From sequence record OP172796.1: a stretch of DNA of 64,000 bases; one strand, given 5' to 3'. Source of the DNA: Escherichia phage EF202P1. A program made the position numbers and the translations under genes. The first letter of the stretch is position 1. Each line of letters opens with the position of its first letter. Below the pieces are notes generated by a model that saw only the letters and a program-made list of their open reading frames with translations, did no database searches and had not been told where the DNA came from. Positions 18,861-64,000 of the stretch are shown piece after piece.

Positions 18861-19160
18861 TTAATCTGCCAACCTTAAATTAAAATTAACACCAAATTTT
18901 TCACATACTTCCAACATAAACTCAAGAGAGACATTACCAGTGAGATTGATTATGTTGGATACACGAGCCTGAGAGATACCACAAATTTTAGCAACTTGCT
19001 CTTGAGAAAGACCTCTGGATTTAATCTCTCTCTTAAAACGATGTGCAACGAAGTCTCGCATTTCGTCTACATCCATTGGACAAATATAACTCTCCATTTC
19101 AGCCTCTCTGTCAGCCTCCCAATCATCTTGTGGAGCATAAGGGTCAAAAACCTCATTCAT
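18861..19160 (-). CDS. XRE-family helix-turn-helix transcriptional regulator
   Basis: HTH motif LSQEQVAKICGISQARVSNI; start moved to internal ATG (MNEVF). Confidence 0.5.
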   Translation of the reverse strand: MNEVFDPYAPQDDWEADREAEMESYICPMDVDEMRDFVAHRFKREIKSRGLSQEQVAKICGISQARVSNIINLTGNVSLEFMLEVCEKFGVNFNLRLAD

Positions 19161-20722: not shown

Positions 20723-21355
<633 letters not shown>

Positions 21356-21359
21356 GAAC

Positions 21360-21697
21360 CCTCAACAGAAGACTCTTTAGAAACTTGGTAGATTTTTAAT
21401 GTGGCTACTACCATCCACCCATACCATGCCACACCACACCGGACCTTACCTAACCCGACCTTACCATACCTGACCTAACCCTACCATACATTATTAAAAG
21501 ACCCTGTTTAAAGACCTTTTAAAAAGGTAAGTCTCATTTTTATGTAGCTGAGACTAACTACCCACACCAAACCATAGCATACATCGCATTACCGGACAGA
21601 ACCATACTTTACCAAACATCACTTAAAAACCCTCTTAGAAGACTCTTAAGTGATGCTGGTGAGTACCCGTTGGTTTATGCTGCTCAGTATACTCACC
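21360..21697. repeat. second copy of the same intergenic unit family (two to three units)
   Basis: Same boxes and hairpins as 19866..20268, ending in GGTGAGTA/TACTCACC stem. Confidence 0.6.
21521..21563 (-). terminator. minus-strand hairpin with T-run downstream of ligase
   Basis: Same AGTCTC/GAGACT hairpin unit as at 19971..20013. Confidence 0.45.
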
Positions 21698-21719
21698 AAA
21701 TTTTCTATGTCAACAACTT

Positions 21720-27204: not shown

Positions 27205-27264
27205 TTTTACTCCCTCTAAAATCATTAACCTCATACATTACTGCAAAAAATTATAAAAAGCAAG

Positions 27265-27293
27265 TTGACAATGTACTTGACAAGGTGTTAATC
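27265..27293 (+). promoter_or_regulatory. candidate promoter in divergent AT-rich region (two TTGACA boxes)
   Basis: TTGACA at about 27265 and 27277; weak -10. Confidence 0.35.
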
Positions 27294-27461
27294 TTTGCGA
27301 AGTGGGTTTTTACTTAAAAGGTTACTTAACAGTTTAACTATACAGATACTTTAAAACTCTTAAAAGATTATTTAATAGCTTTTAAAAAGCTTTAAAGTAT
27401 AACGTATAGAATACGTTAAGATAAAAGATTAAAACTTAATAGTTACTTAAAAGAGGCTTAC

Positions 27462-38859: not shown

Positions 38860-39929
38860 TTAACCAACACCCAATCTTTTTAGGTGGTGAGAGAAAGACG
38901 TTTGACTCACTTAATAAACACTACCCAAAAATCTTTGAACTATATAAACAACAAAAAGCACAAGACTGGTCAGAAGATGAGTTCCCTTTTGAACAATCAC
39001 GTCTTGATTTTGAAAGTGTCCCAGCATCAATGTCAGGTGTAATGCTTGAGATTCTTAAGTGGCAGTGGGAAGCAGATACCCAAGTTGCTAAGAGTTTAGC
39101 GTTTGCCTTTGCACCATTCATCTCTGATGACATTTATGCAACTGCAATTATGAAGCAGTCTGAGATTGAAAACCTACATGCTCTTACTTACTCGGAGATT
39201 GTAAGACAATGTATTAAAAATCCTGAAACAATCTTAGATGAGATTAACCAGAACATTGCTGTACAAGACCGATTAAAAACTGTGAATCGTGTTCTTGAAG
39301 AATTACTGGATGAAGGTATAAACTATCGGCTGAGTTATGTTCGTGACTCACTTCTGGACAAAGACCCTTTACACTTCCATAAAGTGATTCTAAAAGGTCT
39401 ATTTGCAGTGACTGCACTTGAAGGTATCTCTTTTATGGCATCCTTTGCATGTACTTTTGCACTTGATGCTCAAGATAAATTTCAAGGTATTGCTCAAGCT
39501 GTACAGAAAATTATGCTTGACGAAATCCTTCACACTAAAATTGATATTGAAGTTTTAAAAGAAACTTTAAGAGATGATGAGTGGCAAAAAGCTTTCCAAC
39601 AAATTCTTCCAGAGATTAAAGTAATCTTAGATGAAGTAGTTGAAAGTGAAGAAAAATGGTCGTATTATATCTTCTCCGAAGGACGTGCTGTAGTTGGTTT
39701 AAATACAAAGCTTCTTCATGAGTGGGTTTACTATAATGCTGCCCCACTGTATGATATGTTTGGCATTCCCAGAGATTTTGTAGCTCCTAAAGAACCACCT
39801 TTGAAGTATATGATTAAGAAGATGGAAATTGATAAAGAGCAGAATGCTAATCAGGAGCAACAGAACGGTGCGTATTTATTGAATACTGTTGTCGATGATT
39901 TGAATAGTGGATTTTTAGAGGTTCCTTAA
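38856..39929 (+). CDS. nrdB: ribonucleoside-diphosphate reductase small subunit
   Basis: 357 aa, size and position after nrdA. Confidence 0.85.
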   Translation: MINQHPIFLGGERKTFDSLNKHYPKIFELYKQQKAQDWSEDEFPFEQSRLDFESVPASMSGVMLEILKWQWEADTQVAKSLAFAFAPFISDDIYATAIMKQSEIENLHALTYSEIVRQCIKNPETILDEINQNIAVQDRLKTVNRVLEELLDEGINYRLSYVRDSLLDKDPLHFHKVILKGLFAVTALEGISFMASFACTFALDAQDKFQGIAQAVQKIMLDEILHTKIDIEVLKETLRDDEWQKAFQQILPEIKVILDEVVESEEKWSYYIFSEGRAVVGLNTKLLHEWVYYNAAPLYDMFGIPRDFVAPKEPPLKYMIKKMEIDKEQNANQEQQNGAYLLNTVVDDLNSGFLEVP

Positions 39930-54886: not shown

Positions 54887-55049
54887 GAGTGATAAGTACA
54901 CTCAAGAAGAGTCGAGATTCACTATCAAAGGTAATACCGGCAGTGATGTGGCAGCAGCCCTTGAGTTTTATCGTGATGGTTTTTACCAGTGCACAATAAA
55001 AGCTAATAACCTTATTGATATGATTTTATTAGGGAACAAACAGCAATGA
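54780..55049 (+). CDS. candidate o-spanin lipoprotein (Rz1-like)
   Basis: Signal peptide with lipobox IMSGC; starts inside 54539..54886 in a different frame. Confidence 0.4.
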   Translation: MKKLSQSFIMFVLLIIMSGCSTNKVNSTFKNSQVSESDKYTQEESRFTIKGNTGSDVAAALEFYRDGFYQCTIKANNLIDMILLGNKQQ

Positions 55050-55315
55050 CAGAGAATGAAGACACTTTCTATGTAGAAGGGTACTTACTGCTACCACGAC
55101 CAAAAGAAACTTATATGCGGATTGATTTCTCACCAACCATTATGGATAATGTGATGTGTCATATTTTTATACAAGGTATCACAGCACAACTAAAGCATGT
55201 TGGTAAAGAGTGCAAAATAAAGGTTGACACTCATCCAGAAATCAAAGAGAATCACTACACATGGTTCTTACCAGACTCTAAAGAAATCTTAGCAGTTCTT
55301 AAAACGAGGAAATGA
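55046..55315 (+). CDS. hypothetical protein
   Basis: Coupled ORF. Confidence 0.35.
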   Translation: MTENEDTFYVEGYLLLPRPKETYMRIDFSPTIMDNVMCHIFIQGITAQLKHVGKECKIKVDTHPEIKENHYTWFLPDSKEILAVLKTRK

Positions 55316-55626
55316 TTATGCAATTCCAGCCAACAAATCGTGGATTTTCTTATGCAGAATTTAAAGATGCTAAAGGGGAAATTTGTACTTTACAAGAGAG
55401 TTCATCATATGAACCATGTATCTGGTTAGGTGCTAAAGAGGTCTCTGTTCAGTACCTAGATGGTGGCTGGAAAACACTTGATATCCCAGCATTAGTAGGT
55501 AAAGATTTTGTAGGTAACCAAAGAATGAAACTCAATCAAGAACAGGTAAAAGAACTGTTGCCGTACCTTCAATACTTTGCTGAAAATGGTGAATTACCAA
55601 CAGAGGAACTTACAAATGCAGATTAA
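55312..55626 (+). CDS. hypothetical protein
   Basis: Coupled ORF. Confidence 0.35.
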   Translation: MIMQFQPTNRGFSYAEFKDAKGEICTLQESSSYEPCIWLGAKEVSVQYLDGGWKTLDIPALVGKDFVGNQRMKLNQEQVKELLPYLQYFAENGELPTEELTNAD

Positions 55627-55942
55627 CGGAAGAGACTTTGTAGCCGTTTACTATGAGAAAGATAAAGAAGTTGGCGTAGCACAAGTATCTTATGGTAATG
55701 GTAAGTGGTTGTATGGAACAATCGCAGTAGTCGGAACAAGGAGTGATACAAAAACTTTTAAAGATTGTGTTGACCTTCTTGAAGAATCCATACACAATCA
55801 TTGGTGTCTGATATGGATGACTGACAACGAAGTGATAGAACGCTTCAAAAAGATTGGTATCAACATTGATAGTATTGAGCATGTTGATTTGTATGAGCTA
55901 ACTGAGAAGGTAAACTATGAAAGTAATACTAGCCAGAGATAA
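55616..55942 (+). CDS. hypothetical protein
   Basis: Start at ATG overlapping upstream stop. Confidence 0.35.
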   Translation: MQINGRDFVAVYYEKDKEVGVAQVSYGNGKWLYGTIAVVGTRSDTKTFKDCVDLLEESIHNHWCLIWMTDNEVIERFKKIGINIDSIEHVDLYELTEKVNYESNTSQR

Positions 55943-56150
55943 AAAGACACGTAAGATTGTAAGTTCAGCAGTATTCATAGGGAGAGATGAAGTCGTCCCG
56001 TTTGCAGGGGAAGATGTGTTAACTTATAAGAAGGGTTTAAAACGTAAATTCAGTGACCGTTTACGTGGCTTCATCTCTGAACCATTAGAAGATTTTAAAA
56101 GTCGTTGTGGTAAAGGTATCATCACTCAAGAGGTAATTATTCATGGCTGA
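55917..56150 (+). CDS. hypothetical protein
   Basis: ORF. Confidence 0.3.
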   Translation: MKVILARDKKTRKIVSSAVFIGRDEVVPFAGEDVLTYKKGLKRKFSDRLRGFISEPLEDFKSRCGKGIITQEVIIHG

Positions 56151-56343
56151 CTTCTGCAAAGACTGCTCTATCGAAATGTTCGGACGTGATACAGGCGACT
56201 TAAAAGGTCTCATCACTGAAGATGACTTTAAAGCTGGCTATGCAATGCCAGTAATCTGTGAAGGTTGTGGGTGCATCTGGGTAGACCATGAAGGGCAACG
56301 TGTAAAACCTTCAGAAGATAAAGAATCTTGGGAGAGATGTTAA
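56143..56343 (+). CDS. zinc-ribbon small protein
   Basis: CKDC ... CEGCGC motif. Confidence 0.35.
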   Translation: MADFCKDCSIEMFGRDTGDLKGLITEDDFKAGYAMPVICEGCGCIWVDHEGQRVKPSEDKESWERC

Positions 56344-57129
56344 ATGGGTATTGTAAAAATCATCAATGGGGATATCTTCTCCGCATTTGATAAAGGTAAG
56401 TTTGATATCATTGGTCACGGTTGCAACTGTATGAACTTAATGGGTGCAGGTATCGCTGACAAGATTTCTAAACTTTACCCAAAAGCATATGAGACCGATA
56501 CAGAAGTTTATCTGTATGCAGGTGGCATAGGTCACAAACCCTGTGAAAATTTACTAGGGAATTTCTCTGTAGCACGTTTAGAACAAGGCCGTATAGCTAA
56601 CCTTTACACTCAGCTTAAGACTGGTAAAGATGCCCGATACAGTGCTTTAGAGTCATCTTTGAAACAACTTAACAGATACTGTGAAGTTAATCAGTTGAAG
56701 AAAGTTGGTTTACCTATGATTGGTGCAGGTATTGGTGGACTTGACCCTCAAGCCGTCACAGTTATCATCAATCAGGTGATGAAGAGTGTAGATGTCTATC
56801 TATATGTCTATGAAGGAGAGATGTACCACAAGTTACGCTCAGGTTGGAAGAACTACTGTGAACCAGAATACTTTGCAGGTGTAGTAACGTTCACAGATAA
56901 CGCAGTTACCCTCTTCAGACGAAGAAAAGGTAAGATACATCAAAGTAACCCTCCGGTTGAAAAGATGTCTCTAAGTAACGCTCTAGTTACCCACCTGTCG
57001 AAGAGCAATCACAGAATTGCCGTGACATTTGGTAGCGATGCAGACACCTACATCTATGCAAGAACTGATGAGAATGTCGAGGAAATTTTCTCATCACCGG
57101 AAGTAACCTTCTTAGACGCAAAGAACTAA
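56344..57129 (+). CDS. macro-domain protein (ADP-ribose binding/hydrolase) with C-terminal extension
   Basis: N-terminal macro signature INGDIFSAF...FDIIGHGCNCMNLMGAGIA and later LPMIGAGIGGLDP. Confidence 0.65.
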   Translation: MGIVKIINGDIFSAFDKGKFDIIGHGCNCMNLMGAGIADKISKLYPKAYETDTEVYLYAGGIGHKPCENLLGNFSVARLEQGRIANLYTQLKTGKDARYSALESSLKQLNRYCEVNQLKKVGLPMIGAGIGGLDPQAVTVIINQVMKSVDVYLYVYEGEMYHKLRSGWKNYCEPEYFAGVVTFTDNAVTLFRRRKGKIHQSNPPVEKMSLSNALVTHLSKSNHRIAVTFGSDADTYIYARTDENVEEIFSSPEVTFLDAKN

Positions 57130-57160
57130 GAAACTCTGTATAATATTCACAATAGACTAA

Positions 57161-57204
57161 GCCTTTCTTATCTGGTAAATTTTTCAGGTAAGGAGGGCTT
57201 TTTC
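57161..57204 (+). terminator. candidate terminator after macro-domain gene
   Basis: GCCTTTCTTA ... TAAGGAGGGC then TTTTT (G-U pairs). Confidence 0.4.
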
Positions 57205-57400
57205 ATTTCAGGATTGTGCAGGTATAAATCTGTAGAGAAATCTGTAGAGAAAATTTTGAACTCCAAAGAGAAAATTCATTTTCAAACTGTGCAGATAATC
57301 TCCAAAGAGCTTTTTTATTTTCAAAACGTGCAGACCCCGCTCAGGTCGGGCAAGAAAAATCATTTTAGAATTGTGCAGGTAGGTGGGTGCAGGTGGGGAT
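57201..57400. repeat. cluster of short direct repeats (TTTTCAAA..TGTGCAGA, AATCTGTAGAGAA x2, CTCCAAAGAG x2)
   Basis: Four copies of (T)CATTTTCAAA(A/C)(T/C)GTGCAG(A/G) plus tandem 13-mers. Confidence 0.55.
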
Positions 57401-57558
57401 GTCGCCATTTCTCACAAGGCTACCACATCTGAAAAGAAAAGTCAACAGAAAAATTTGTAGCGGATTGAAAAATAATTCTTGATTGTAGTTCTGTTTTGTG
57501 GTAGTCGCGTGCACCCGTTTCATTACAGTTTTTTGCAAAAATATTTTTAAAATTCCTA

Positions 57559-57587
57559 TTGACTCTTTGAGTATGGTTATCTAATAT
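57559..57587 (+). promoter_or_regulatory. sigma70-like promoter TTGACT-17-TAATAT at start of small-ORF array
   Basis: Near-consensus hexamers. Confidence 0.5.
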
Positions 57588-57635
57588 TTGCATCAGACGG
57601 GCAATCAAGCCCACTTCCTAAACTGGAGAATCAAA

Positions 57636-57842
57636 ATGCTTTACAGTCGTGAATTGATGGTTACAACTAACGTTAACACAAAGGTAAAACGTTTTTATAT
57701 GCAAGTGTGCGGCGCATGGCGTAGAATATCAGAAGCTGACTATTGCAACTATGTAGAAACGGCTATTAATTCTAATTGCTACCTTACAAGAAACACTAAG
57801 AAATTTACAAGGCAGACAGCGATTTACTACTACGACAAATAA
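57636..57842 (+). CDS. small hypothetical protein (array gene 1)
   Basis: ATG after RBS CTGGAGAATCAAA; sigma70-like promoter upstream. Confidence 0.4.
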   Translation: MLYSRELMVTTNVNTKVKRFYMQVCGAWRRISEADYCNYVETAINSNCYLTRNTKKFTRQTAIYYYDK

Positions 57843-57928
57843 AGTACTTTACAGGGGGCTTAAAAGCTGATATCTTAAGCCCCAGATAAAGAGCTTTACC
57901 ACTCAATCCTAAATTGGAGAACTTAAAA
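57843..57928 (+). promoter_or_regulatory. class-A cassette (TTTACA - hairpin - TATCTT/TAAAGT - conserved leader - RBS)
   Basis: AAGTACTTTACAGGGGGCTT...AAGCCCCAGATAAAGAGCTTTACC...GGAGA...ATG. Confidence 0.5.
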
Positions 57929-58309
57929 ATGGCATACCGTGCACCTAAATTCATCAACAAAGACAACTTTCGCAACGCACTGGAGAAGTCACTTGATGAA
58001 AATTTTAAAGGTAACATTATCGTTGTTCACGCATTCAATTTTAAGTATGATGTAAACGGGAATAGAATCAACCATTACACAGCAACCATGTTAGATGGTA
58101 CGCTATCAAGTGAAAAAGCTGTACTGAATGCACTTGCAGGACGTGGTAAAAACCTGATAAGATGCGATAAGAGACGTTATCAGGGTGGCGCATATGGTTA
58201 TGATGATGCTGTTTATCATCTTGAAAATATGGGCTATTCAGTGGAAAAAGCTGGAGTGTCTCAAATAATCGGCAGTGACGGCTATGTGACAATTTTCAAA
58301 ATTAACTAA
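57929..58309 (+). CDS. small hypothetical protein (array gene 2)
   Basis: ATG 8 nt after GGAGA RBS of conserved cassette. Confidence 0.45.
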   Translation: MAYRAPKFINKDNFRNALEKSLDENFKGNIIVVHAFNFKYDVNGNRINHYTATMLDGTLSSEKAVLNALAGRGKNLIRCDKRRYQGGAYGYDDAVYHLENMGYSVEKAGVSQIIGSDGYVTIFKIN

Positions 58310-58311
58310 TA

Positions 58312-58397
58312 AAGTACTTTACAGGGGGCTTATAGTTCGATAAAGTAAGCCCCAGATAAAGAGCTTTACCACTAAATCCTAAATTGGAGATTCAAAA
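58312..58397 (+). promoter_or_regulatory. class-A cassette
   Basis: Near-identical copy; hairpin GGGGCTTATAGTTCGATAAAGTAAGCCCC. Confidence 0.5.
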
Positions 58398-58655
58398 ATG
58401 GCTATTATTAAAAACGTTGTAATTCCTGCAAAAACTCGTGATGACGCTCGCATCATGGCGAAAAAGTTAGGCGGAAAAGTGGTTGACAACGGAAAACAAA
58501 CTGCTGTAAGGTGGGGCGTGAAAGCTGATAAGCAACTAACCTTAAAACGCAGTTCAAACAACCTTTTTAAAGGTGTAAAATCACTCGGTAAAGTGAACGT
58601 GTTTACCAAAAAAGGCTATAAAATGCACTTATCATTAACTGGCAATTTAATCTGA
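58398..58655 (+). CDS. small hypothetical basic protein (array gene 3)
   Basis: Cassette-preceded ORF. Confidence 0.45.
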   Translation: MAIIKNVVIPAKTRDDARIMAKKLGGKVVDNGKQTAVRWGVKADKQLTLKRSSNNLFKGVKSLGKVNVFTKKGYKMHLSLTGNLI

Positions 58656-58745
58656 TAAAGTACTTTACAGGGGGCTTAAAAGCTGATATCTTAAGCCCCA
58701 GATAAAGAGCTTTACCACTCAATCCTTAAACTAGGAGATTCAAAA
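58656..58745 (+). promoter_or_regulatory. class-A cassette
   Basis: Near-identical copy. Confidence 0.5.
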
Positions 58746-59258
58746 ATGAAAACTGTAGACGCTACCTTTGAAGTTGTAAAAGAAAAATTTTCCATAATTT
58801 ATGAGGCTGTCAATTGCTACGAAGCAAGCCATAATCTTGATAATTGGAAGTTTACAGATGACCATCAAGGCGGTGTGACTATTAAAAACCCCAACTGTCA
58901 GCGTAATGGATTTAAATATGCAATTCCTTTACATTACAGCCTTAAACAGCTTTCAATTGACTATGCAAAACAAGGCCGGGAAAATCCATCGAAAGAGGCT
59001 TACATCAGCTTACAGAAAGAACTAGAAAGAGATTTAGAGGCTTCAGAATATAACATCGCCGCGAAAGTTGTAGATGCAAACGGTAGCACGGTTTTAGAGA
59101 GTTTTTATATTGGTTATGCTTTCGATTGGTGCTACAGTGACGGCGATGATTTAGATGACAGACTAAAAGAGGAAGTGAACAACGCAGACGCAGAATCTGA
59201 AGTATTAGAACGCTTGGAAGCATTAAAAGATTCAGTGATGAATATCTTTAAGAACTAA
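58746..59258 (+). CDS. hypothetical acidic protein (array gene 4)
   Basis: Cassette-preceded ORF. Confidence 0.45.
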   Translation: MKTVDATFEVVKEKFSIIYEAVNCYEASHNLDNWKFTDDHQGGVTIKNPNCQRNGFKYAIPLHYSLKQLSIDYAKQGRENPSKEAYISLQKELERDLEASEYNIAAKVVDANGSTVLESFYIGYAFDWCYSDGDDLDDRLKEEVNNADAESEVLERLEALKDSVMNIFKN

Positions 59259-59349
59259 ATAGATTTCTTTACACGGGGCTAACAAGCGGATATGATAGCC
59301 CCAGATAAAGAGATTTATCAAATTAACCCTTAAACTAGGAGATTCTAAA
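59259..59349 (+). promoter_or_regulatory. class-A cassette (divergent copy, TTTACA-17-TATGAT)
   Basis: Hairpin sequence differs (CGGGGCTA...TAGCCCC) but hexamers and spacing kept. Confidence 0.5.
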
Positions 59350-59646
59350 ATGAAATTATCAAATAAAGTTAGGGAAAACCTTAGCAAATTACTCAATAAA
59401 ATTGATTTTATCGAGACATCAAGGAATAGTCATGATGTTATGGAATGGTTACACGGCAAAATAAAAGGCCGTCGCGTCGTGATTTGCTTATGGAATAGTT
59501 GCAGGGAATATAAAAAGCCTGTATTGCAAATTAATGTTTATGATGATACTTTTAAAAGTCCTGTAAAGTCTAAAAGCGATTTATTAGAATCCTATGAGAT
59601 AACTGTAAATGGCAAAGTATCATGTAAAGAGGAAGCACCATGTTAA
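59350..59646 (+). CDS. small hypothetical protein (array gene 5)
   Basis: Cassette-preceded ORF. Confidence 0.45.
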   Translation: MKLSNKVRENLSKLLNKIDFIETSRNSHDVMEWLHGKIKGRRVVICLWNSCREYKKPVLQINVYDDTFKSPVKSKSDLLESYEITVNGKVSCKEEAPC

Positions 59647-59972
59647 TGATGGGTATCACTGCAATCATTGCCATTATAGCACTGTACAAGGCTTATAGCG
59701 CATATAATTTGGCAAGTAAGGCAATCACGCAACAGGTTAATAATAGCCTTGTAATGAGCTTTCTGGAGCGTTTAAGTGATGAACAAATAAAACGGTTAGA
59801 AATGAGCTTCAGATTTCAATCAAAAACTTATCAAATCAGCGACATTTTCAAAGATAATTTTCAGCTTGTCGATGATTATAACTCTCTGATAAATGCTTTA
59901 AATATCAGTGACTTAAAAGACTATTACACTGTAATTGTCCAAGAACTGAACAAACGAAAAAATTTCTCTTGA
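59640..59972 (+). CDS. small membrane protein (array gene 6)
   Basis: N-terminal TM helix MLMMGITAIIAIIALY; overlaps upstream ORF. Confidence 0.4.
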   Translation: MLMMGITAIIAIIALYKAYSAYNLASKAITQQVNNSLVMSFLERLSDEQIKRLEMSFRFQSKTYQISDIFKDNFQLVDDYNSLINALNISDLKDYYTVIVQELNKRKNFS

Positions 59973-60062
59973 TTTTAGTTTTAAAAACAAGTAAATTACT
60001 AATCAACGGGGAGGGAATGACCTTCCCCACTAAGTAAAGTCCTTAAACTAGGAGATTCAAAA
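59969..60062 (+). promoter_or_regulatory. class-B cassette (TTGATT-17-TAAATT promoter, 5' hairpin GGGGAGG/CCTTCCCC, RBS)
   Basis: Promoter hexamers, then AATCAACGGGGAGGGAATGACCTTCCCCACTAAGTAAAGTCCTTAAACTAGGAGATTC..ATG. Confidence 0.55.
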
Positions 60063-60335
60063 ATGTACACTACTAACAACGGTCGCACCTTAAACGTAAC
60101 CCTACGTCACTATGTGAACGGTGTAATGCACTTCGAGGATTTACAAGCTGAACAGCACATTTTGGATTGGCAACTTGCAGGATTCCAAAAAACTGCTACC
60201 GGATACGGGAAAAAGATTCCAACTAGCTGGAAAGTATACTACGAAGGCCGTTTGCGTAGAATTTATCAAGATGTATGCGGCAATAGCGCATCAAGTTACA
60301 TCATAGTAAAAGGCAAAAAGCTGCATTTAGTATAA
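60063..60335 (+). CDS. small hypothetical protein (array gene 7)
   Basis: Cassette-preceded ORF. Confidence 0.45.
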   Translation: MYTTNNGRTLNVTLRHYVNGVMHFEDLQAEQHILDWQLAGFQKTATGYGKKIPTSWKVYYEGRLRRIYQDVCGNSASSYIIVKGKKLHLV

Positions 60336-60420
60336 AGTACTTTACAAGGGGCTTATAGTTCGATAAAGTAAGCCCCAGATAAAGAGCTTTACCACTAAAT
60401 CCTAAATTGGAGATTCAAAA
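60336..60420 (+). promoter_or_regulatory. class-A cassette
   Basis: Near-identical copy. Confidence 0.5.
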
Positions 60421-60825
60421 ATGGCTATTAATAATCGTGAGTTATCTATCTTAAAAGCACGTTTGACCGTCAACCGGATTAATGTTATCACATCATCAGC
60501 ACCAGATGAAACACTGCAAAACATTATTGGGAAGATTCAAAGTATTATCTTAGACGTTGAAAGCGTAAAAAACTCATTGGCTGACGTTGCAGCCGGTATC
60601 ACGCTAGACGGTGCACAACATGAGATGGCCGACATGTTAGGCAAATCAAAGGTAATGAATAAAGAGCTTGATTTAAAGATGTTCCGATTTGCTGTTAAAG
60701 TGTGGCTATCCGTCGAGTATGACGCTAATTTTGCAATCGCTGATTTCTTTGCCACTTGGTTACAACGTAACTTAACAAATCATGATTTCCGTGATGTCTG
60801 TGATGCAATCTACGCAGAACTTTAA
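60421..60825 (+). CDS. small hypothetical protein (array gene 8)
   Basis: Cassette-preceded ORF. Confidence 0.45.
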   Translation: MAINNRELSILKARLTVNRINVITSSAPDETLQNIIGKIQSIILDVESVKNSLADVAAGITLDGAQHEMADMLGKSKVMNKELDLKMFRFAVKVWLSVEYDANFAIADFFATWLQRNLTNHDFRDVCDAIYAEL

Positions 60826-60832
60826 AAAGATG

Positions 60833-60925
60833 TTGACACTGATTTTTAGATAGATTAAATTACTCATCAACGGGGAGGCAATAGCCTCCCTACTAAGTAA
60901 AGTCCTTAAACTAGGAGATTCAAAA
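60833..60925 (+). promoter_or_regulatory. class-B cassette (TTGACA-17-TAAATT)
   Basis: As above, hairpin variant GGGGAGGCAATAGCCTCCC. Confidence 0.55.
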
Positions 60926-61123
60926 ATGGCTATTATTAACGGCTTAAACATTGAAACAACACACATCAAAGATATCAAAGTTGGTGATGTAGTCCTTTCC
61001 CACGGCGTAGAAAAAACTGTCACTGCAAAGGATATCAAAGAGGATTCTTTCATGGGTAGAACTCTCTTCGGTGATTCTTATTGCTTAGGTTATCTTGCAG
61101 TTTTAAAAGTTGTCAAAAATTAA
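60926..61123 (+). CDS. small hypothetical protein (array gene 9)
   Basis: Cassette-preceded ORF. Confidence 0.4.
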   Translation: MAIINGLNIETTHIKDIKVGDVVLSHGVEKTVTAKDIKEDSFMGRTLFGDSYCLGYLAVLKVVKN

Positions 61124-61215
61124 GTAATAAAGTGCTTTACAAGGGGCTTAAAAAGTTGGTATCTTAAGCCCCAGATAAAGAGCTTTACACAGTCCTTAAA
61201 CTAGGAGATTAAAAA
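61124..61215 (+). promoter_or_regulatory. class-A cassette
   Basis: Near-identical copy. Confidence 0.5.
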
Positions 61216-61464
61216 ATGATGAACTATTTCAATGTCCCTGATACCTGCCGACTATTGACACAAGAAGAAAACTTGGGTAAACCTTTTCTTTACCACATAC
61301 CAGACAACACACCAAAAACTTATAGTTACAATGTCAACCGTTTTACCGCATACGCTGCAAAGAACGGTTATAAGTTGGTCACTCAAAAAGTAATGCTGGT
61401 TACAACCGCTGATGAGATTCCTACAGTTGCAGTTAAACTAATTTTCTCAAAAAAAGTTAAATAA
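61216..61464 (+). CDS. small hypothetical protein (array gene 10)
   Basis: Cassette-preceded ORF. Confidence 0.45.
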   Translation: MMNYFNVPDTCRLLTQEENLGKPFLYHIPDNTPKTYSYNVNRFTAYAAKNGYKLVTQKVMLVTTADEIPTVAVKLIFSKKVK

Positions 61465-61549
61465 AGTACTTTACAAGGGGCTTATAGTTCGATAAAGTAA
61501 GCCCCAGATAAAGAGCTTTACCACTAAATCCTAAACTGGAGATTCAAAA
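61465..61549 (+). promoter_or_regulatory. class-A cassette
   Basis: Near-identical copy. Confidence 0.5.
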
Positions 61550-62113
61550 ATGAAATGCTATCACGGAACTACCCTCAAAAACTTTGTAAACCTGCTGAAT
61601 GGTGGCGACAAGCCGGAAGGAATCTGGAACTGCTCATACATGGATGATTGTTTCTACGTTTACCCAATGAACAAGATTATCAAAACGGAATGTCTGGAAG
61701 ATGAGGAAGATTCTTACATTCGTGAACGCTGCATTCAAAACGCTTTAGAATCTGGGCTTATTACGGCAGCTTTCCAAATGGAAACGCAGGATGTAATTGT
61801 CATTGAGATGGATATCCCAGAGGAAGAGCTAGAGGATGATTATTCTTGTGACAACATGAGCGATATCGCCAGCTTTACCGGACACTTTGATAAAAATTGG
61901 ATTATTGGCCTTCACTCGACGAAATTTAGTGCGATGTATGCACCTTTCTTTGTACCAGATGCAACTAACCGCAATTTAGGCTATGTTGACGATGATTTGT
62001 TAAGTATGGCGAAAATTGTACAGAATAGCGGTGATAGTTCCGTGTTTTGTGACTTGCTGGATAAAATCACGGCAAACATCACAGAGTGCAATTTAAAAGA
62101 CTTTTTAGGTTAA
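61550..62113 (+). CDS. hypothetical strongly acidic protein (array gene 11)
   Basis: Cassette-preceded ORF; Asp/Glu-rich (EDEEDSY, EEELEDDYSCD). Confidence 0.45.
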   Translation: MKCYHGTTLKNFVNLLNGGDKPEGIWNCSYMDDCFYVYPMNKIIKTECLEDEEDSYIRERCIQNALESGLITAAFQMETQDVIVIEMDIPEEELEDDYSCDNMSDIASFTGHFDKNWIIGLHSTKFSAMYAPFFVPDATNRNLGYVDDDLLSMAKIVQNSGDSSVFCDLLDKITANITECNLKDFLG

Positions 62114-62176
62114 TCAGTACAAAGACACCAACTTCCAACTTAAGGCCCATACAGGGCCATTTAAAGGGCTTAAATC

Positions 62177-62410
62177 ATGCTTACAACCGTTTATCTTATC
62201 CTTTCTATTTGTAATGGTCATTCATGTGATTTTAAAGGGCTTGAGGAGTTTACAGGGAGTAAAGAAAATGCTATTCAAGTTTGCCAGATAGCAAGACAAG
62301 ACTATCCCGCCAGTGATGATATTCAATGTTACTTTAAGACAGAAGACAGCGACGGCGTTTATTTTGACAGTGTCGATGGTCAATATGAAATTATCATTGA
62401 AAAAGACTAG
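62177..62410 (+). CDS. small hypothetical protein (array gene 12)
   Basis: ORF after GGCCC hairpin. Confidence 0.4.
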   Translation: MLTTVYLILSICNGHSCDFKGLEEFTGSKENAIQVCQIARQDYPASDDIQCYFKTEDSDGVYFDSVDGQYEIIIEKD

Positions 62411-62501
62411 ACAAGCCTGATAAAAGTCTGTAAATTGTCAATCAACGGGGAGGGAATGACCTTCCCCACTAAATAAAGTCCTTAAACTAGGAGATTCTAA
62501 A
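62408..62501 (+). promoter_or_regulatory. class-B cassette (TAGACA-17-TAAATT)
   Basis: As above. Confidence 0.5.
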
Positions 62502-62843
62502 ATGGCTTATGTAACTGTAATTACCGATAAAGCTGGCGCATCTTGGTCAACTCAAGTAAGCGATAAGATGTCACCTATGCAGTGCCTAAAATACTTTGAG
62601 CAGTGGAACAAAGGCGAGGATGTAAGCCCCTTTCAAGTGATGCAGATTATCCATGTAGACAACGAAGGGAATAAAACGACGCTGAATAGTGAGCACTATG
62701 TAAGCCGTTTTGAAACGAGAAGTAAAACAATGAAACTTTTACGTGAATCCGGTTACGCCCATATCGCCGCGTTAATCTGGGATGACCTGCTAAAAAGACA
62801 GCGTATCAGCTATGTAAAACCTGAAAAAATATTTATCAGTTAA
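62502..62843 (+). CDS. small hypothetical protein (array gene 13)
   Basis: Cassette-preceded ORF. Confidence 0.45.
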   Translation: MAYVTVITDKAGASWSTQVSDKMSPMQCLKYFEQWNKGEDVSPFQVMQIIHVDNEGNKTTLNSEHYVSRFETRSKTMKLLRESGYAHIAALIWDDLLKRQRISYVKPEKIFIS

Positions 62844-62973
62844 TCAATAACTTACAAAAAACTTTTAAAAAGATGTTGACAATCCCTCTTGACATTGGTA
62901 ACTTTGTTCGAGGGGGGTTTATCTAAAAGGGATTAACTTAAAAGATTCTTTATAGATAGACTTAAAAAATTGC

Positions 62974-63066
62974 TTGCAATCAGATATCAAAACAAGTAAA
63001 TTACTCATCAACGGGGAGGCAATAACCTCCCTACTAAGTAAAGTCCTTAAACTAGGAGATTCTAAA
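62974..63066 (+). promoter_or_regulatory. class-B cassette (TTGCAA-17-TAAATT)
   Basis: As above. Confidence 0.5.
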
Positions 63067-63597
63067 ATGAACAAGTTCAAAGCTATCAACTATATTCGTT
63101 CCGTCAATGTCATGTCAAAGCCTGTAAAAGATACGTATGAATTTCGTTGTAATGGTGTACACTTCGCAACAATCACCAAATCAGAAAACGGGGCTTATTA
63201 CGTTCATCGCCGTAATGTTGCAACCGTTGTAGTCTCTCATTTTATGCAAGCTGTCGCGGAACTTCTCCCGATGTTTTTAGGTCTTTATTTAGATGAGTGT
63301 AAAAACGTTCACAGCCACGTTAAAAACCTTTTAAATAGCTATAAAATGGCTTATGAACGTTCTATCAAGTCCTTAAACAAGTTTTACAACGCACCTGAAA
63401 ATACTGTATCAATGGCCTACGATGTAAATGGTGAGGCGGTGAGTCTCTTTGAAGTGGAAGAAATCAAGCTGCATGATTTACGCCCTAGCGGTTACTCTAA
63501 GACTCTCGGTGAAGGTTTAACGTTCAATATCAAGAACTTAGAAAAAACTTTAAAAGATATTGAAAAAGATATTGACGAGACAATCAAAAATCTGTAA
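63067..63597 (+). CDS. hypothetical protein (array gene 14)
   Basis: Start at ATG after class-B cassette RBS. Confidence 0.45.
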   Translation: MNKFKAINYIRSVNVMSKPVKDTYEFRCNGVHFATITKSENGAYYVHRRNVATVVVSHFMQAVAELLPMFLGLYLDECKNVHSHVKNLLNSYKMAYERSIKSLNKFYNAPENTVSMAYDVNGEAVSLFEVEEIKLHDLRPSGYSKTLGEGLTFNIKNLEKTLKDIEKDIDETIKNL

Positions 63598-63663
63598 ATT
63601 GTCAATCAACGGGGAGGGAATGACCTTCCCCACTAAGTAAAGTCCTAAACTGGAGATTCAAAA
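63573..63663 (+). promoter_or_regulatory. class-B cassette (TTGACG-16-TAAATT)
   Basis: As above; -35 lies in 3' end of upstream CDS. Confidence 0.5.
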
Positions 63664-63927
63664 ATGGAACACGTCGAACTGACCACAATTTTACAAATTG
63701 CAACCGACAAAGAGGATGTAGCATTATTCCACCGTATCGAAAGTGACTTGTTCAATGGTGAAATCATTAAAGAATCTTACGAAGTGGTCGGATTCAAAGA
63801 TGGTAAATCATTTGGATTCTTTGACCTCGACAAAGGCAAAGCGGTTACAAAATATGATGTTTTATCTTGTGAGATTCTGACAAAATACAACGAAAAAAGA
63901 CTTGCAACATACGCCAACATGCAGTAA
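63664..63927 (+). CDS. small hypothetical protein (array gene 15)
   Basis: Cassette-preceded ORF. Confidence 0.45.
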   Translation: MEHVELTTILQIATDKEDVALFHRIESDLFNGEIIKESYEVVGFKDGKSFGFFDLDKGKAVTKYDVLSCEILTKYNEKRLATYANMQ

Positions 63928-63996
63928 ATTACTAATCAACGGGGAGGGAATGACCTTCCCCACTAAATAAAGTCCTTAAACTAGGAGATTCTAAAA
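63902..63996 (+). promoter_or_regulatory. class-B cassette (TTGCAA-17-TAAATT)
   Basis: As above; next ORF starts at about 63997 and runs off the window. Confidence 0.5.
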
Positions 63997-64000
63997 TGGC

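What the first reader, a model, noticed from the sequence alone, without database searches (positions are those of the whole stretch)
57201..57400. Iteron-like cluster of direct repeats at the boundary between the core genes and the small-ORF array
Within 200 bp there are four copies of (T)CATTTTCAAA(A/C)(T/C)GTGCAG(A/G), a perfect tandem AATCTGTAGAGAA x2, CTCCAAAGAG x2 and a GC-rich patch (GGTGGGTGCAGGTGGGGATGTCGCC), and no ORF. This looks like a multi-site binding platform: a replication origin with iterons, or operator sites for a phage regulator controlling the downstream array.
Basis: seen in the sequence. Interest (0 to 1): 0.55.

Follow-up and report, generated by a model that had tools for sequence, protein, structure and literature searches.

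The report
Conserved four-repeat DNA site in Felix-O1-like phages
A 180-bp stretch of non-coding DNA holding four copies of a 19-26-bp motif occurs exactly once per genome in every Felix-O1-like phage examined and is as conserved as protein-coding sequence, so it is almost certainly a docking platform for a DNA-binding protein (possibly a replication origin), although what binds it is still unknown.

Summary
The window is a Felixounavirus (Felix O1-like myovirus). Positions 57196-57381 carry four same-orientation units with consensus R-G-[CTTTT or AAAAW]-TCATTTT-nrAwwy-GTGC-Akrta. They sit in a 507-bp ORF-free gap, just after the terminator of a macro-domain gene and 180 bp before the first promoter of the small-ORF array.

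A loose motif pattern hits only these four sites in the 64-kb window and nowhere in the rest of a related genome. The cluster is also single-copy in phiEa21-4. The same 3-4-unit array, at the same position, occurs in seven Ounavirinae lineages whose flanking non-coding DNA no longer aligns.

Within Felixounavirus the unit cores vary 2-30 times less than synonymous sites. It is not the genome end, not an Rfam RNA, not unusually structured, not coding, and not a sigma-70 promoter cluster, DnaA-box cluster or Chi site.

The function is unresolved:
- **Best guess (about 0.35):** an iteron-type origin or origin-like nucleoprotein platform.
- **Evidence against:** no initiator gene was found, unit spacing is irregular, there is no GC-skew change, and a better T7-style origin candidate lies at 27.3 kb.
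the HTH protein is absent from Erwinia and Hafnia relatives that carry the array.

It appears undescribed in the searchable literature. Interest is moderate.

The parts
56344..57129 (+). Macro-domain (T4 Tk.4-like) gene. This is the last gene of the rIIA-to-macro block and is always the left neighbour of the array.
   Evidence: Pfam Macro, E = 1.2e-7. The same neighbour occurs in Sf15, Zyzzx, L014 and L056 and in phiEa21-4, where it is annotated Tk.4.
57159..57200 (+). Intrinsic terminator hairpin of the macro gene. Its T-run is the T-tract of unit 1.
   Evidence: Terminator scan: 17 pairs followed by TTTCATTT. Annotated as a terminator in AYO145A. Diversity is 0.02.
57196..57224 (+). Unit 1: GGCTTTT + TCATTTCAGGATTGTGCAG + GTA (T-tract type).
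57228..57251 (+). Perfect 12-bp tandem ATCTGTAGAGAA x2, the second motif family. A third, degenerate copy (AGAAAAATTTGTAGCGGA) lies at 57447-57464.
   Evidence: The motif is also present in Zyzzx.
57261..57297 (+). Unit 2: flank CTCCAAAGAG + AAAAT + TCATTTTCAAACTGTGCAG + ATA (A-tract type).
   Evidence: Core diversity is 0.005 and flank diversity 0.0.
57300..57336 (+). Unit 3: flank CTCCAAAGAG + CTTTT + TTATTTTCAAAACGTGCAG + ACC (T-tract type).
   Evidence: Core diversity is 0.019.
57344..57381 (+). Unit 4: flank GGTCGGGCAAG + AAAAA + TCATTTTAGAATTGTGCAG + GTA (A-tract type).
   Evidence: Core diversity is 0.020.
57382..57431 (.). Strand-skewed GC-rich patch. It exists as two alternative alleles within Felixounavirus. 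The window has the G-rich form. The other form is CCCCTCTCCCCCTCTTACTCCCCCTCTCCCC, which is a canonical G-quadruplex motif on the minus strand.
   Evidence: Alignment. Diversity is 0.268, the highest in the gap apart from the 5'UTR.
57432..57482 (.). Conserved A-tract block, GAAAAGAAAAGTCAACAGAAAAATTTGTAGCGGATTGAAAAATAATTC. It contains AAAAGTCAA, which is conserved as far as Zyzzx.
   Evidence: Diversity is 0.064.
57559..57587 (+). Sigma-70-like promoter TTGACT-17-TAATAT, with an AT-rich upstream element at 57531-57555. This is the first promoter of the small-ORF array.
   Evidence: Promoter scan. Conserved in the alignments. The window starting at 57529 is the 9th least stable 60-bp window.
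57636..57842 (+). First small ORF of the array (68 aa, no family match). The gene in this position differs between Felixounavirus genomes.

Best explanation
The region is a cis-acting DNA element, not a gene and not an RNA. It consists of four same-orientation binding sites of about 26 bp. Each site has a G, an A5 or T5 tract, a conserved asymmetric core TCATTTT-N6-GTGC, and a lineage-specific flank of 10-13 bp. The sites lie in a transcriptionally quiet gap between a strong terminator and the first early promoter.

The most likely mechanism is as follows. A sequence-specific protein occupies the four sites. Its recognition surface would be conserved across Ounavirinae, and it is probably phage-encoded with two DNA-contacting modules. 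The A/T tracts help it bend or wrap the DNA into a higher-order nucleoprotein complex. I consider an iteron-type replication origin the single most likely role for that complex. On this reading the adjacent GC-skewed patch and A-tract block (57382-57555) would serve as the region where strands are opened or a primer is laid down for the phage's T7-like replisome.

**Shown:** the anatomy, uniqueness, conservation and constraint of the array, and the absence of RNA, coding or promoter signatures.

**Inferred:** protein binding, the identity of the binder, complex formation and origin function.
For: - **Unique in the genome.** The array is the only such cluster in the 64-kb window, in the rest of a close relative, and in the whole phiEa21-4 genome, apart from one isolated minus-strand hit at 39082.
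- **Absent elsewhere.** No non-chance match was found outside Ounavirinae contigs in 2.9 M viral contigs. In 185k bacterial genomes there were only 3 matches, which I judge to be chance. There is no similarity in E. coli genomes.
- **Conserved arrangement.** Three or four units, in the same orientation and at the same position after the macro-gene terminator, occur in 7 lineages. These span Felixounavirus, Suspvirus, Mooglevirus, Kolesnikvirus, Hafnia Zyzzx and two metagenomic groups. The rest of the gap is unalignable between the distant lineages.
- **Invariant core.** Core positions A2, T3, T4 and G13-T14-G15-C16 are 100% invariant in 26 units. A5 and T5 tracts occur 13:13 and in no fixed order. 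That fits minor-groove or bending recognition rather than base read-out.
- **Purifying selection.** Nucleotide diversity in the unit cores is 0.005-0.065. It is 0.144 at macro-gene third codon positions and 0.02-0.03 at first and second positions.
- **Transcriptionally quiet setting.** The array lies between a terminator and a promoter pointing away from it.
- **Origin-like layout.** Direct repeats, A/T tracts, a GC-rich patch and an AT-rich block make up the classic arrangement of iteron origins such as lambda ori and plasmid oriV. Noncoding repeat-type origins are also known in lytic phages, for example T4 oriE and lactococcal phage ori (my own knowledge, not tested here).
Against: - No Rep/O-type initiator or other candidate was recognised among the neighbouring genes or ten replication-arm proteins.
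- The replisome is T7-like: polymerase, primase-helicase, exonuclease and ligase. Origins of that type are promoter plus AT-rich DNA, not iterons.
- A region fitting that description better lies at 27235-27461. It is the least stable DNA in the window, has two tandem TTGACA hexamers, sits next to the polymerase gene and is the GC-skew minimum.
- Unit spacing is irregular and differs between genera: 73/39/45, 37/37/39 and 55/43/53. Classical iterons are regularly phased.
- GC skew shows no origin-like change at 57.2 kb.
- The AT-rich part of the gap is only the 9th least stable 60-bp window.
- The GC-rich patch has opposite strand polarity in the two alleles. That argues against a fixed R-loop mechanism.
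Confidence: 0.35

Rival explanations
1. A transcriptional or architectural control platform. On this reading a phage or host DNA-binding protein occupies the four sites. It would insulate the early small-ORF array from read-through out of the rIIA-to-macro operon, acting as a roadblock behind the terminator. Alternatively it would activate or silence the first early promoter from a distance by bending or looping the DNA.
For: - The array always sits exactly between the macro-gene terminator and the first early promoter of the array, in every lineage.
- Phased A-tracts and an UP-like AT block lie between the units and the promoter.
- The whole 500-bp gap, not just the units, is constrained.
- The core is conserved in phages of Escherichia, Salmonella, Shigella, Citrobacter, Erwinia and Hafnia. 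That would fit a conserved enterobacterial host factor.
Against: - The units are 180-355 bp from the promoter and none overlaps it. The distance and the intervening sequence vary between genera.
- Every other ORF of the array has its own promoter-hairpin cassette but no such motif.
- The sites are asymmetric, unlike typical dimeric repressor operators.
- The only annotated regulator, the XRE-type HTH, is not found in the Erwinia or Hafnia relatives that have the array.
- By inspection I found no match to host-factor consensus sites: DnaA, IHF, CRP, PhoB, OmpR or the marbox. These comparisons rest on my own knowledge of the consensus sequences.
Confidence: 0.28
2. A polar barrier or anchoring site that marks off the terminal 9% or so of the genome. 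This would be analogous to the phage T5 injection-stop (iss) region. A bound protein at the four oriented sites would pause DNA entry, or block an enzyme travelling in from the right end, until early-array proteins are made.
For: - The array lies about 6.9 kb from the right terminal repeat and about 7.5 kb (8.7%) from the physical right end. T5's first-step-transfer DNA is 7.9% of its genome (10.1101/866236).
- Everything between the array and the end is a block of small, variable early-type ORFs.
- Like the T5 iss region, the non-coding repeats are better conserved than the neighbouring ORFs (10.1101/866236).
- All the sites are asymmetric and face the same way.
Against: - Two-step injection has not been reported for Felix O1-like phages in the papers I read.
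- The T5 hallmark, paired DnaA boxes, is absent here. The best match in the window is 6 of 8 specified positions. Only the phiEa21-4 copies reach 8/9 (my inspection).
- Array genes are transcribed towards the end, and it is not known which end enters first.
- No equivalent element bounds the left-end gene block.
Confidence: 0.08
3. An RNA-level element. This could be a non-coding RNA, or a 3'UTR made by read-through of the macro-gene terminator. The repeated motif would then bind an RNA-binding protein or pair with a host RNA.
For: The whole 185-bp stretch is constrained, including the spacers. The first unit begins inside the terminator's U-tract.
Against: - No Rfam family matches, even at E<=10.
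- Folding energy is no better than that of shuffles on either strand, with z = +0.48 and +0.36.
- The helices I first proposed (57385/57514 and 57417/57497) lose their 5' partner in the alternative C-rich allele while the 3' partner stays unchanged.
- No promoter is found in or just upstream of the units. The only minus-strand candidate, TTGAAA-18-GATTAT, is not conserved.
- A5 and T5 tracts are interchangeable. That makes sense for duplex DNA and not for RNA.
- No complementary sequence exists in E. coli genomes.
Confidence: 0.05
4. No sequence-specific function. On this reading the repeats are a relic of local duplication, kept similar by recombination. The gap would serve only as a homologous 'linker' for exchanging early-gene cassettes.
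For: The gap borders a highly mosaic array. It contains a biallelic segment and another biallelic 8-mer, which are signs of recombination.
Against: Concerted evolution cannot explain why the same core positions stay invariant in lineages where the flanks have diverged beyond alignment. Nor can it explain why copy number, orientation and position are all kept. Diversity is far below the synonymous rate.
Confidence: 0.05
5. A small protein-coding gene. Some GenBank records annotate a hypothetical protein here, corresponding to the 66-aa minus-strand or the 72-aa plus-strand ORF.
For: The minus-strand ORF is open in nearly all Felixounavirus sequences. Units 2-4 are spaced by multiples of 3, namely 39 and 45. 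Several records carry a 'hypothetical protein' annotation here.
Against: - The plus-strand ORF has stops in most relatives.
- The minus-strand ORF is broken in Sf15 (4 stops), phiEa21-4 (3), Zyzzx (8) and L028 (a 10-nt deletion), although the DNA motif is kept.
- Unit spacings of 41, 37, 55, 43 and 53 in other genera are not multiples of 3.
- There is no ribosome-binding site or start-codon context, by my reading.
Confidence: 0.02

Closest known systems
Iteron-type replication origins (lambda ori with four O-protein sites; plasmid oriV of F, P1, pSC101 and RK2). Comparison from my own knowledge.
   Same: Three or four direct repeats of about 19 bp in one orientation. They have intrinsic A/T-tract bending and lie next to GC-rich and AT-rich segments, at a single locus per replicon.
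   Different: - Spacing is irregular (37-75 bp) and differs between genera, instead of about 22-bp phasing.
- Each unit carries an extra lineage-specific flank.
- No initiator gene is adjacent or recognisable.
- The phage has a T7-like replisome.
- Origin activity is untested.
Phage T4 oriE, with its iteron cluster and the repEA/repEB genes. Recalled from the literature and not checked here.
   Same: A virulent myovirus with rIIA/rIIB-type genes that uses short direct repeats in an early region as one of its origins.
   Different: No sequence similarity was looked for or is known. No repE-like genes were identified here. T4 origins depend on an origin transcript, and none is evident here.
Phage T5 injection-stop (iss) repeat region (Davison, bioRxiv 10.1101/866236)
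   Same: An untranslated, repeat-dense region that is better conserved than the neighbouring ORFs. It lies at the inner border of a terminal block of small early genes, about 8-9% from a genome end.
   Different: - T5's region is about 1.2 kb and lies inside a 10-kb terminal repeat.
- It is built of inverted repeats, palindromes and paired DnaA boxes.
- Here there are four direct asymmetric units and no DnaA boxes.
- The terminal repeat is about 0.6-0.7 kb (581-694 bp in the records and papers examined here) and lies elsewhere.
- Two-step entry is unknown for this group.
T7 primary origin (tandem promoters followed by an AT-rich segment). From my own knowledge.
   Same: The same type of replisome is encoded by this phage.
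   Different: The array contains no promoters. The only promoter in the gap points away from it. The 27.3-kb divergent intergenic region matches the T7 pattern better.
Repeated early-promoter cassettes of related myoviruses (the 41-nt repeats of PAK_P1-like phages, PMC4309531; the promoter-hairpin cassettes of this window's small-ORF array)
   Same: Short repeats in the early region of Felix-O1-related phages.
   Different: Those repeats contain a clear TTGACA-N17-TAgAAT promoter and are scattered in front of many genes. The units here have no promoter hexamers and are clustered at one site.

Membership tests
Iteron-type replication origin | Three or more direct repeats of about 17-22 bp in the same orientation at a single locus | tested here: met
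   Four units with a 19-bp core, all on the + strand and unique in the genome.
Iteron-type replication origin | Regular, helically phased spacing of the repeats | tested here: not met
   Start-to-start spacings are 73/39/45 (Felixounavirus), 75/41/45 (Sf15), 37/37/39 (phiEa21-4) and 55/43/53 (Zyzzx).
Iteron-type replication origin | Adjacent easily melted AT-rich unwinding element | tested here: inconclusive
   An A-tract block (57432-57482) and an AT block (57531-57555) are present. The best 60-bp window ranks only 9th in the window. The global stability minimum is at 27.3 kb.
Iteron-type replication origin | Cognate initiator (Rep/O/RepE-type) encoded next to or containing the repeats | tested here: not met
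   The neighbours are a macro-domain protein and small ORFs with no family match. Ten replication-arm proteins gave no initiator family in PHROGs. The search was not exhaustive.
Iteron-type replication origin | Replication actually starts here | not testable with these tools
   This needs marker-frequency sequencing or an origin-cloning assay. GC skew is uninformative because it follows gene strand.
T7-type transcription-activated origin | Promoter(s) firing into an AT-rich segment | tested here: not met
   There are no promoter-like sites in the units. P57559 fires away from them.
Operator array of a phage repressor or regulator | Sites overlapping or directly flanking the regulated promoter, usually with dyad symmetry | tested here: not met
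   The nearest unit ends 178 bp upstream of the -35 hexamer. The sites are asymmetric.
Operator array of a phage repressor or regulator | Co-occurrence with the candidate regulator (XRE-HTH at 18861-19160) | tested here: not met
   tblastn at E<=1e-3 finds the protein in 260 records, nearly all from phages of Escherichia, Salmonella, Shigella or Citrobacter. None of the Erwinia or Hafnia Ounavirinae that carry the array has it.
T5-type injection-stop (iss) region | Conserved untranslated repeat region at the inner edge of the terminal early block, about 8% from the end | tested here: met
   The array is 7.5 kb (8.7%) from the right physical end of NBSal004. Only small ORFs lie between it and the end.
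T5-type injection-stop (iss) region | Paired DnaA boxes (TTWTNCACA) within inverted repeats | tested here: not met
   By inspection, the reverse complements of the window units match at most 6 of 8 specified positions, and no inverted-repeat pair is present. The phiEa21-4 copies reach 8/9.
T5-type injection-stop (iss) region | Two-step DNA entry | not testable with these tools
   No report was found in the papers searched.
Genome terminus / pac site / terminal repeat | Coincides with the physical end or the terminal repeat | tested here: not met
   The 581-bp (D4) and 694-bp (NBSal004) terminal repeats lie about 7 kb to the right and have a different repeat family, CTGTTAAGA. Published repeat sizes are 581 bp (PMC8303462) and 608 bp (PMC4837284).
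Known structured RNA family (Rfam) | Covariance-model match, or a stable and conserved secondary structure | tested here: not met
   No Rfam family reaches its gathering score anywhere in the window. In the local scan (57000-57800) the best match has E = 1.2 at 18.7 bits against a gathering score of 50. Folding z-scores are +0.48 and +0.36.

The most novel reading that the evidence does not exclude
The four oriented sites could form a polar nucleoprotein checkpoint. It would separate the terminal 9% or so of the genome, the small-ORF 'host-takeover' array, from the rest. In other words, Felix-O1-like phages would deliver or expose their DNA in two stages, as T5 does, using a completely different cis-element and an unknown binder. 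A less exotic variant is a Tus/Ter-like polar block to an enzyme entering from the right end.
Probability: 0.07. Interest if true: 0.8.

Novelty: new member of a known kind. Interest (0 to 1): 0.5.

Why it matters
Felix O1 and its relatives are classic diagnostic phages and are widely used for therapy and biocontrol. Yet the genome paper states that nobody knows how their transcription is timed (PMC3185647), and the papers I searched identify no replication origin.

This element is the single most conspicuous conserved non-coding signal in the subfamily apart from the termini. It gives a precise 180-bp target for mutagenesis, pull-down and origin-mapping experiments.

- **If it is the origin,** it would allow construction of phage-dependent replicons. 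It would also explain a constraint on engineering, because insertions here would be harmful.
- **If it is a control or entry checkpoint for the early array,** it would reveal how the host-takeover and anti-defence gene block is regulated.

In practical terms, genome annotators should stop calling hypothetical proteins inside it.

Tried and rejected
1. **Genome end, DTR or pac site: rejected.** The terminal repeat was located directly in D4 and NBSal004, about 7 kb to the right, and it carries a different repeat family.
2. **Structured RNA: rejected.** I first saw nested helices GGGTGCA/TGCACCC and GGCTACCACA/TGTGGTAGTC. Half of Felixounavirus replaces the 5' arms with an unrelated C-rich allele while keeping the 3' arms. 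Rfam and folding z-scores were also negative.
3. **Sigma-70 promoter cluster: rejected.** The scan finds only P57559 on the plus strand and one non-conserved minus-strand site in the gap. By eye, sigma-E (spacer 18 instead of 16, and only in unit 2), sigma-54 and the T4 MotA box do not fit across lineages.
4. **DnaA boxes: rejected.** Only the phiEa21-4 copies resemble TTATGCACA. In addition, the invariant TCATTTT half lies outside where a DnaA box would sit.
5. **Other host-factor sites: no consistent match.** I compared the units by eye with the IHF, CRP, PhoB, OmpR, marbox and Fis consensus sequences, which I recalled from memory.
6. **Chi: rejected.** GCAGGTGG at 57389 is a 7/8 match to Chi, but the genome has no true GCTGGTGG and phiEa21-4 lacks the resemblance.
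7. **Host or satellite copy of the array: none found.** There is none in 185k bacterial genomes or in E. coli genomes. The many metagenome hits are unrelated tandem satellites or Ounavirinae contigs.
8. **Coding: rejected**.
9. **GC skew as origin evidence: uninformative**.
10. **The macro protein's C-terminal domain as the binder: not pursued.** It is poorly conserved and has no Pfam or PDB match. I did not run structure prediction.
11. **PhageMaP Bas63 knockout data: no help.** Only genes were targeted, so there is no intergenic data for this region.

Full report
**What the window is.** Megablast of 55000-60000 gives 92-96% identity to many Escherichia, Salmonella and Shigella phages of the genus Felixounavirus, the Felix O1-like myoviruses of subfamily Ounavirinae. 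The finding lies in a 507-bp gap, 57130-57636. On its left is a macro-domain gene (56344-57129; Pfam Macro) that ends a long plus-strand block beginning with rIIA/rIIB. On its right is the first ORF of a run of small ORFs, each with its own promoter-hairpin cassette.

**The observation.** The four copies, the tandem repeat, the CTCCAAAGAG pair and the G-rich patch are all present.
- The copies start at 57203, 57276, 57315 and 57360.
The other two are more degenerate.
- The pattern with up to 3 mismatches gives 7 hits in 64 kb against 1.4 expected. No shuffle out of 100 reached 7, and the three best hits are all here.
- A deliberately loose regex, [TC][CT]ATT[TA][TC]N2[AG]N3GTGC, hits only these four positions on either strand of the window.
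- In 300 simulated sequences it gave 0.31 hits on average, and never two within 200 bp.

**Anatomy.** The order along the plus strand is as follows.
- A strong terminator hairpin at 57159-57200 (annotated as a terminator in AYO145A). Its T-run is already part of unit 1.
- Four units.
- A 12-bp perfect tandem between units 1 and 2.
- A G-rich patch at 57382-57406.
- A conserved A-tract block at 57432-57482.
- A sigma-70-like promoter, TTGACT-17-TAATAT, at 57559-57587 with an AT-rich upstream element.
- The first small ORF at 57636.

Aligning 26 units from seven lineages gives the unit R-G-[CTTTT | AAAAW]-T-C-A-T-T-T-T-n-r-A-w-w-y-G-T-G-C-A-k-r-t-a. It is preceded by a 10-13-bp block that repeats within a genome but differs between genera: (GA)CTCCAAAGRG, GGTCTGGCAAG or GACACGATAG. 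A5 and T5 versions occur 13:13 and in no conserved order.

**Conservation.**
- The whole gap is found at 80% coverage or more in 237 phage records. The core, 57275-57377, still hits Erwinia and Hafnia phages at 75%.
- The same 3-4 units, in the same orientation and directly after the terminator of a macro-domain gene, occur in all of the following: SUSP2, Sf15, phiEa21-4, SPARTY, PMBT37 and Zyzzx, two metagenomic groups, and all 22 Ounavirinae contigs returned from IMG/VR.
- Between distant genera, only the units and a few short blocks align.
- Among 20 distinct Felixounavirus sequences, nucleotide diversity is 0.144 at macro-gene third codon positions and 0.02-0.03 at first and second positions. 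It is 0.005-0.065 in the unit cores, 0.0 in the flank of unit 2 and 0.02 in the terminator.
- Diversity is 0.27 in the patch, which exists as two unrelated alleles, one G-rich and one C-rich.

**Uniqueness.**
- The part of a close relative's genome that lies outside the window (NBSal004, 1-24000) holds no further copy, and the overlapping right-end stretch (78000-86841) holds only the same four.
- The whole phiEa21-4 genome has the cluster once, plus one isolated chance hit.
- The two-unit pattern finds only Ounavirinae contigs in 2.9 M viral contigs, plus one chance hit inside a large ORF.
- It finds three unrelated hits in 185,579 bacterial genomes.
- E. coli genomes hold nothing similar.
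- Metagenome hits are Ounavirinae contigs or unrelated satellites.

**What it is not.**
- *Not the genome end.* D4 has identical 581-bp ends and NBSal004 has identical 694-bp ends. These lie about 7 kb to the right of the array and are full of a different repeat, CTGTTAAGA. Published terminal-repeat sizes are 581 and 608 bp (PMC8303462, PMC4837284).
- *Not a known or structured RNA.* My first-glance helices are lost in the C-rich allele.
- *Not coding.*
- *Not a promoter cluster.*

**Which function?** The data firmly support a sequence-specific protein-binding platform on duplex DNA. Choosing between roles is inference.

For an origin:
- It is a single-copy cluster of oriented direct repeats with A/T tracts.
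- It lies in a transcriptionally quiet gap next to GC-rich and AT-rich segments. This is the textbook layout.

Against an origin:
- No initiator was recognised.
- The replisome is T7-like.
- Spacing is irregular.
- GC skew only tracks gene orientation.
- The least stable DNA and the skew minimum are at 27235-27461, beside the polymerase gene, where there are tandem TTGACA hexamers.

For a regulatory or insulating role:
- The array's position between terminator and first early promoter is invariant.

Against a regulatory or insulating role:
- The array is 180-355 bp from the promoter.
- The sites are asymmetric.

A T5-iss-like checkpoint is suggested only by position: 8.7% from the right end, bounding the early block (10.1101/866236). 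It lacks the T5 hallmarks.

My estimates are 0.35 for an origin-type platform, 0.28 for transcriptional or architectural control, 0.08 for an entry or polar barrier, 0.05 for RNA, 0.05 for no specific function and 0.02 for coding. The rest is unassigned.

**Literature.** The Felix O1 genome paper lists other repeats but not this one. It states that temporal regulation is unknown (PMC3185647). The UAB_Phi87 paper (PMC4837284), the PAK_P1 paper (PMC4309531) and the Bas63 knockout screen do not describe it either. The Bas63 screen targeted genes only (10.1101/2024.10.10.617714). Full-text searches for origin, iterons or transcriptome in this phage group found nothing relevant.

**Verdict.** This is a real, strongly constrained, subfamily-wide cis-element. 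As far as I can search, it is undescribed. Its kind, a clustered direct-repeat binding platform, is familiar. Its binder and role are open and directly testable.

Noticed in passing
L002 1-1100 and L003 1920-2500 (phage D4); L118 1-694 = L119 last 694 nt (NBSal004); L121 16472-17660 (phiEa21-4). All lie about 0.8 kb beyond the window's right end.: The true terminal repeat is 581-694 bp. It, and about 500 bp inside it, are packed with 11-bp-period direct repeats of CTGTTAAGA / CTTGTTAG. The same motif family fills the equivalent 1.2-kb non-coding region of phiEa21-4. This is the most iteron-like DNA in these genomes. It resembles response-regulator-type direct repeats such as the ArcA box (my recollection).
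   Followed up: partly
window 27235-27461: A divergent intergenic region between the DNA polymerase gene (minus strand) and the plus-strand replication and nucleotide-metabolism arm. It is the least stable DNA in the whole window and the GC-skew minimum. It has two TTGACA hexamers 12 bp apart and CTTAAAAGRTTAYTTAAYAG repeats. By the T7 pattern it is a better replication-origin candidate than the finding.
   Followed up: partly
window 21326-21719 (minus strand): A gap of about 390 nt after a TTGACA-17-TATACT promoter. It contains a (GGTNN)n run (about 21430-21500) that resembles the G-rich patch at 57382-57402. It also has GAGTCTTCTAAGAGGGTT / GAGTCTTCTGTTGAGGGTT repeats related to the terminal-repeat motif.
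   Followed up: no
window 57382-57431 and its homologues in L013, L014, L016, L018, L024, L026, L030, L031: The patch after unit 4 has two unrelated alleles within one genus. One is G-rich, as in the window. The other is a pyrimidine tract, CCCCTCTCCCCCTCTTACTCCCCCTCTCCCC, which is a canonical G-quadruplex motif on the minus strand. In addition, 57333-57340 is biallelic (ACCCCGCT versus AGAAAAAT or ATAAAAAT).
   Followed up: partly
L018 (end of locus), L013 (end), L023 (after unit 3); GenBank MN850610 (Andreotti) record start: Several independent assemblies break at or near the C-rich patch. The L018 locus runs into a Nextera adapter (CTGTCTCTTATACACATCTCCGAGCCCACGAGAC) right after it, and L013 ends at the same base. 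L023 is chimeric from unit 3 onward. The Andreotti record starts 34 nt past unit 4. The likely cause is a sequencing or coverage problem at the G4/C-rich tract, but a physical discontinuity was not excluded.
   Followed up: no
window 56344-57129 and homologues (alignment A2): The macro-domain protein is always the left neighbour of the array. Its N-terminal macro domain is well conserved. Its C-terminal 100 aa or so are poorly conserved and have no significant Pfam match (best: PH domain, E = 0.2) and no PDB sequence match.
   Followed up: partly
window 57843-64000: The small ORFs are separated by near-identical cassettes, each made of a -35-like TTTACA, a GC-rich hairpin and a conserved ribosome-binding region (CCTAAACTGGAGA). 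There are many internal BLAST self-matches. This resembles the mobile promoter-stem-loop cassettes of T4-type phages (my recollection) and the 57-bp repeats reported for Felix O1 (PMC3185647).
   Followed up: no
window 18861-19160 (minus strand): An XRE-type HTH 'transcriptional regulator' in a virulent phage. It is present in Felixounavirus, Suspvirus and Mooglevirus but was not detected in the Erwinia or Hafnia Ounavirinae.
   Followed up: partly
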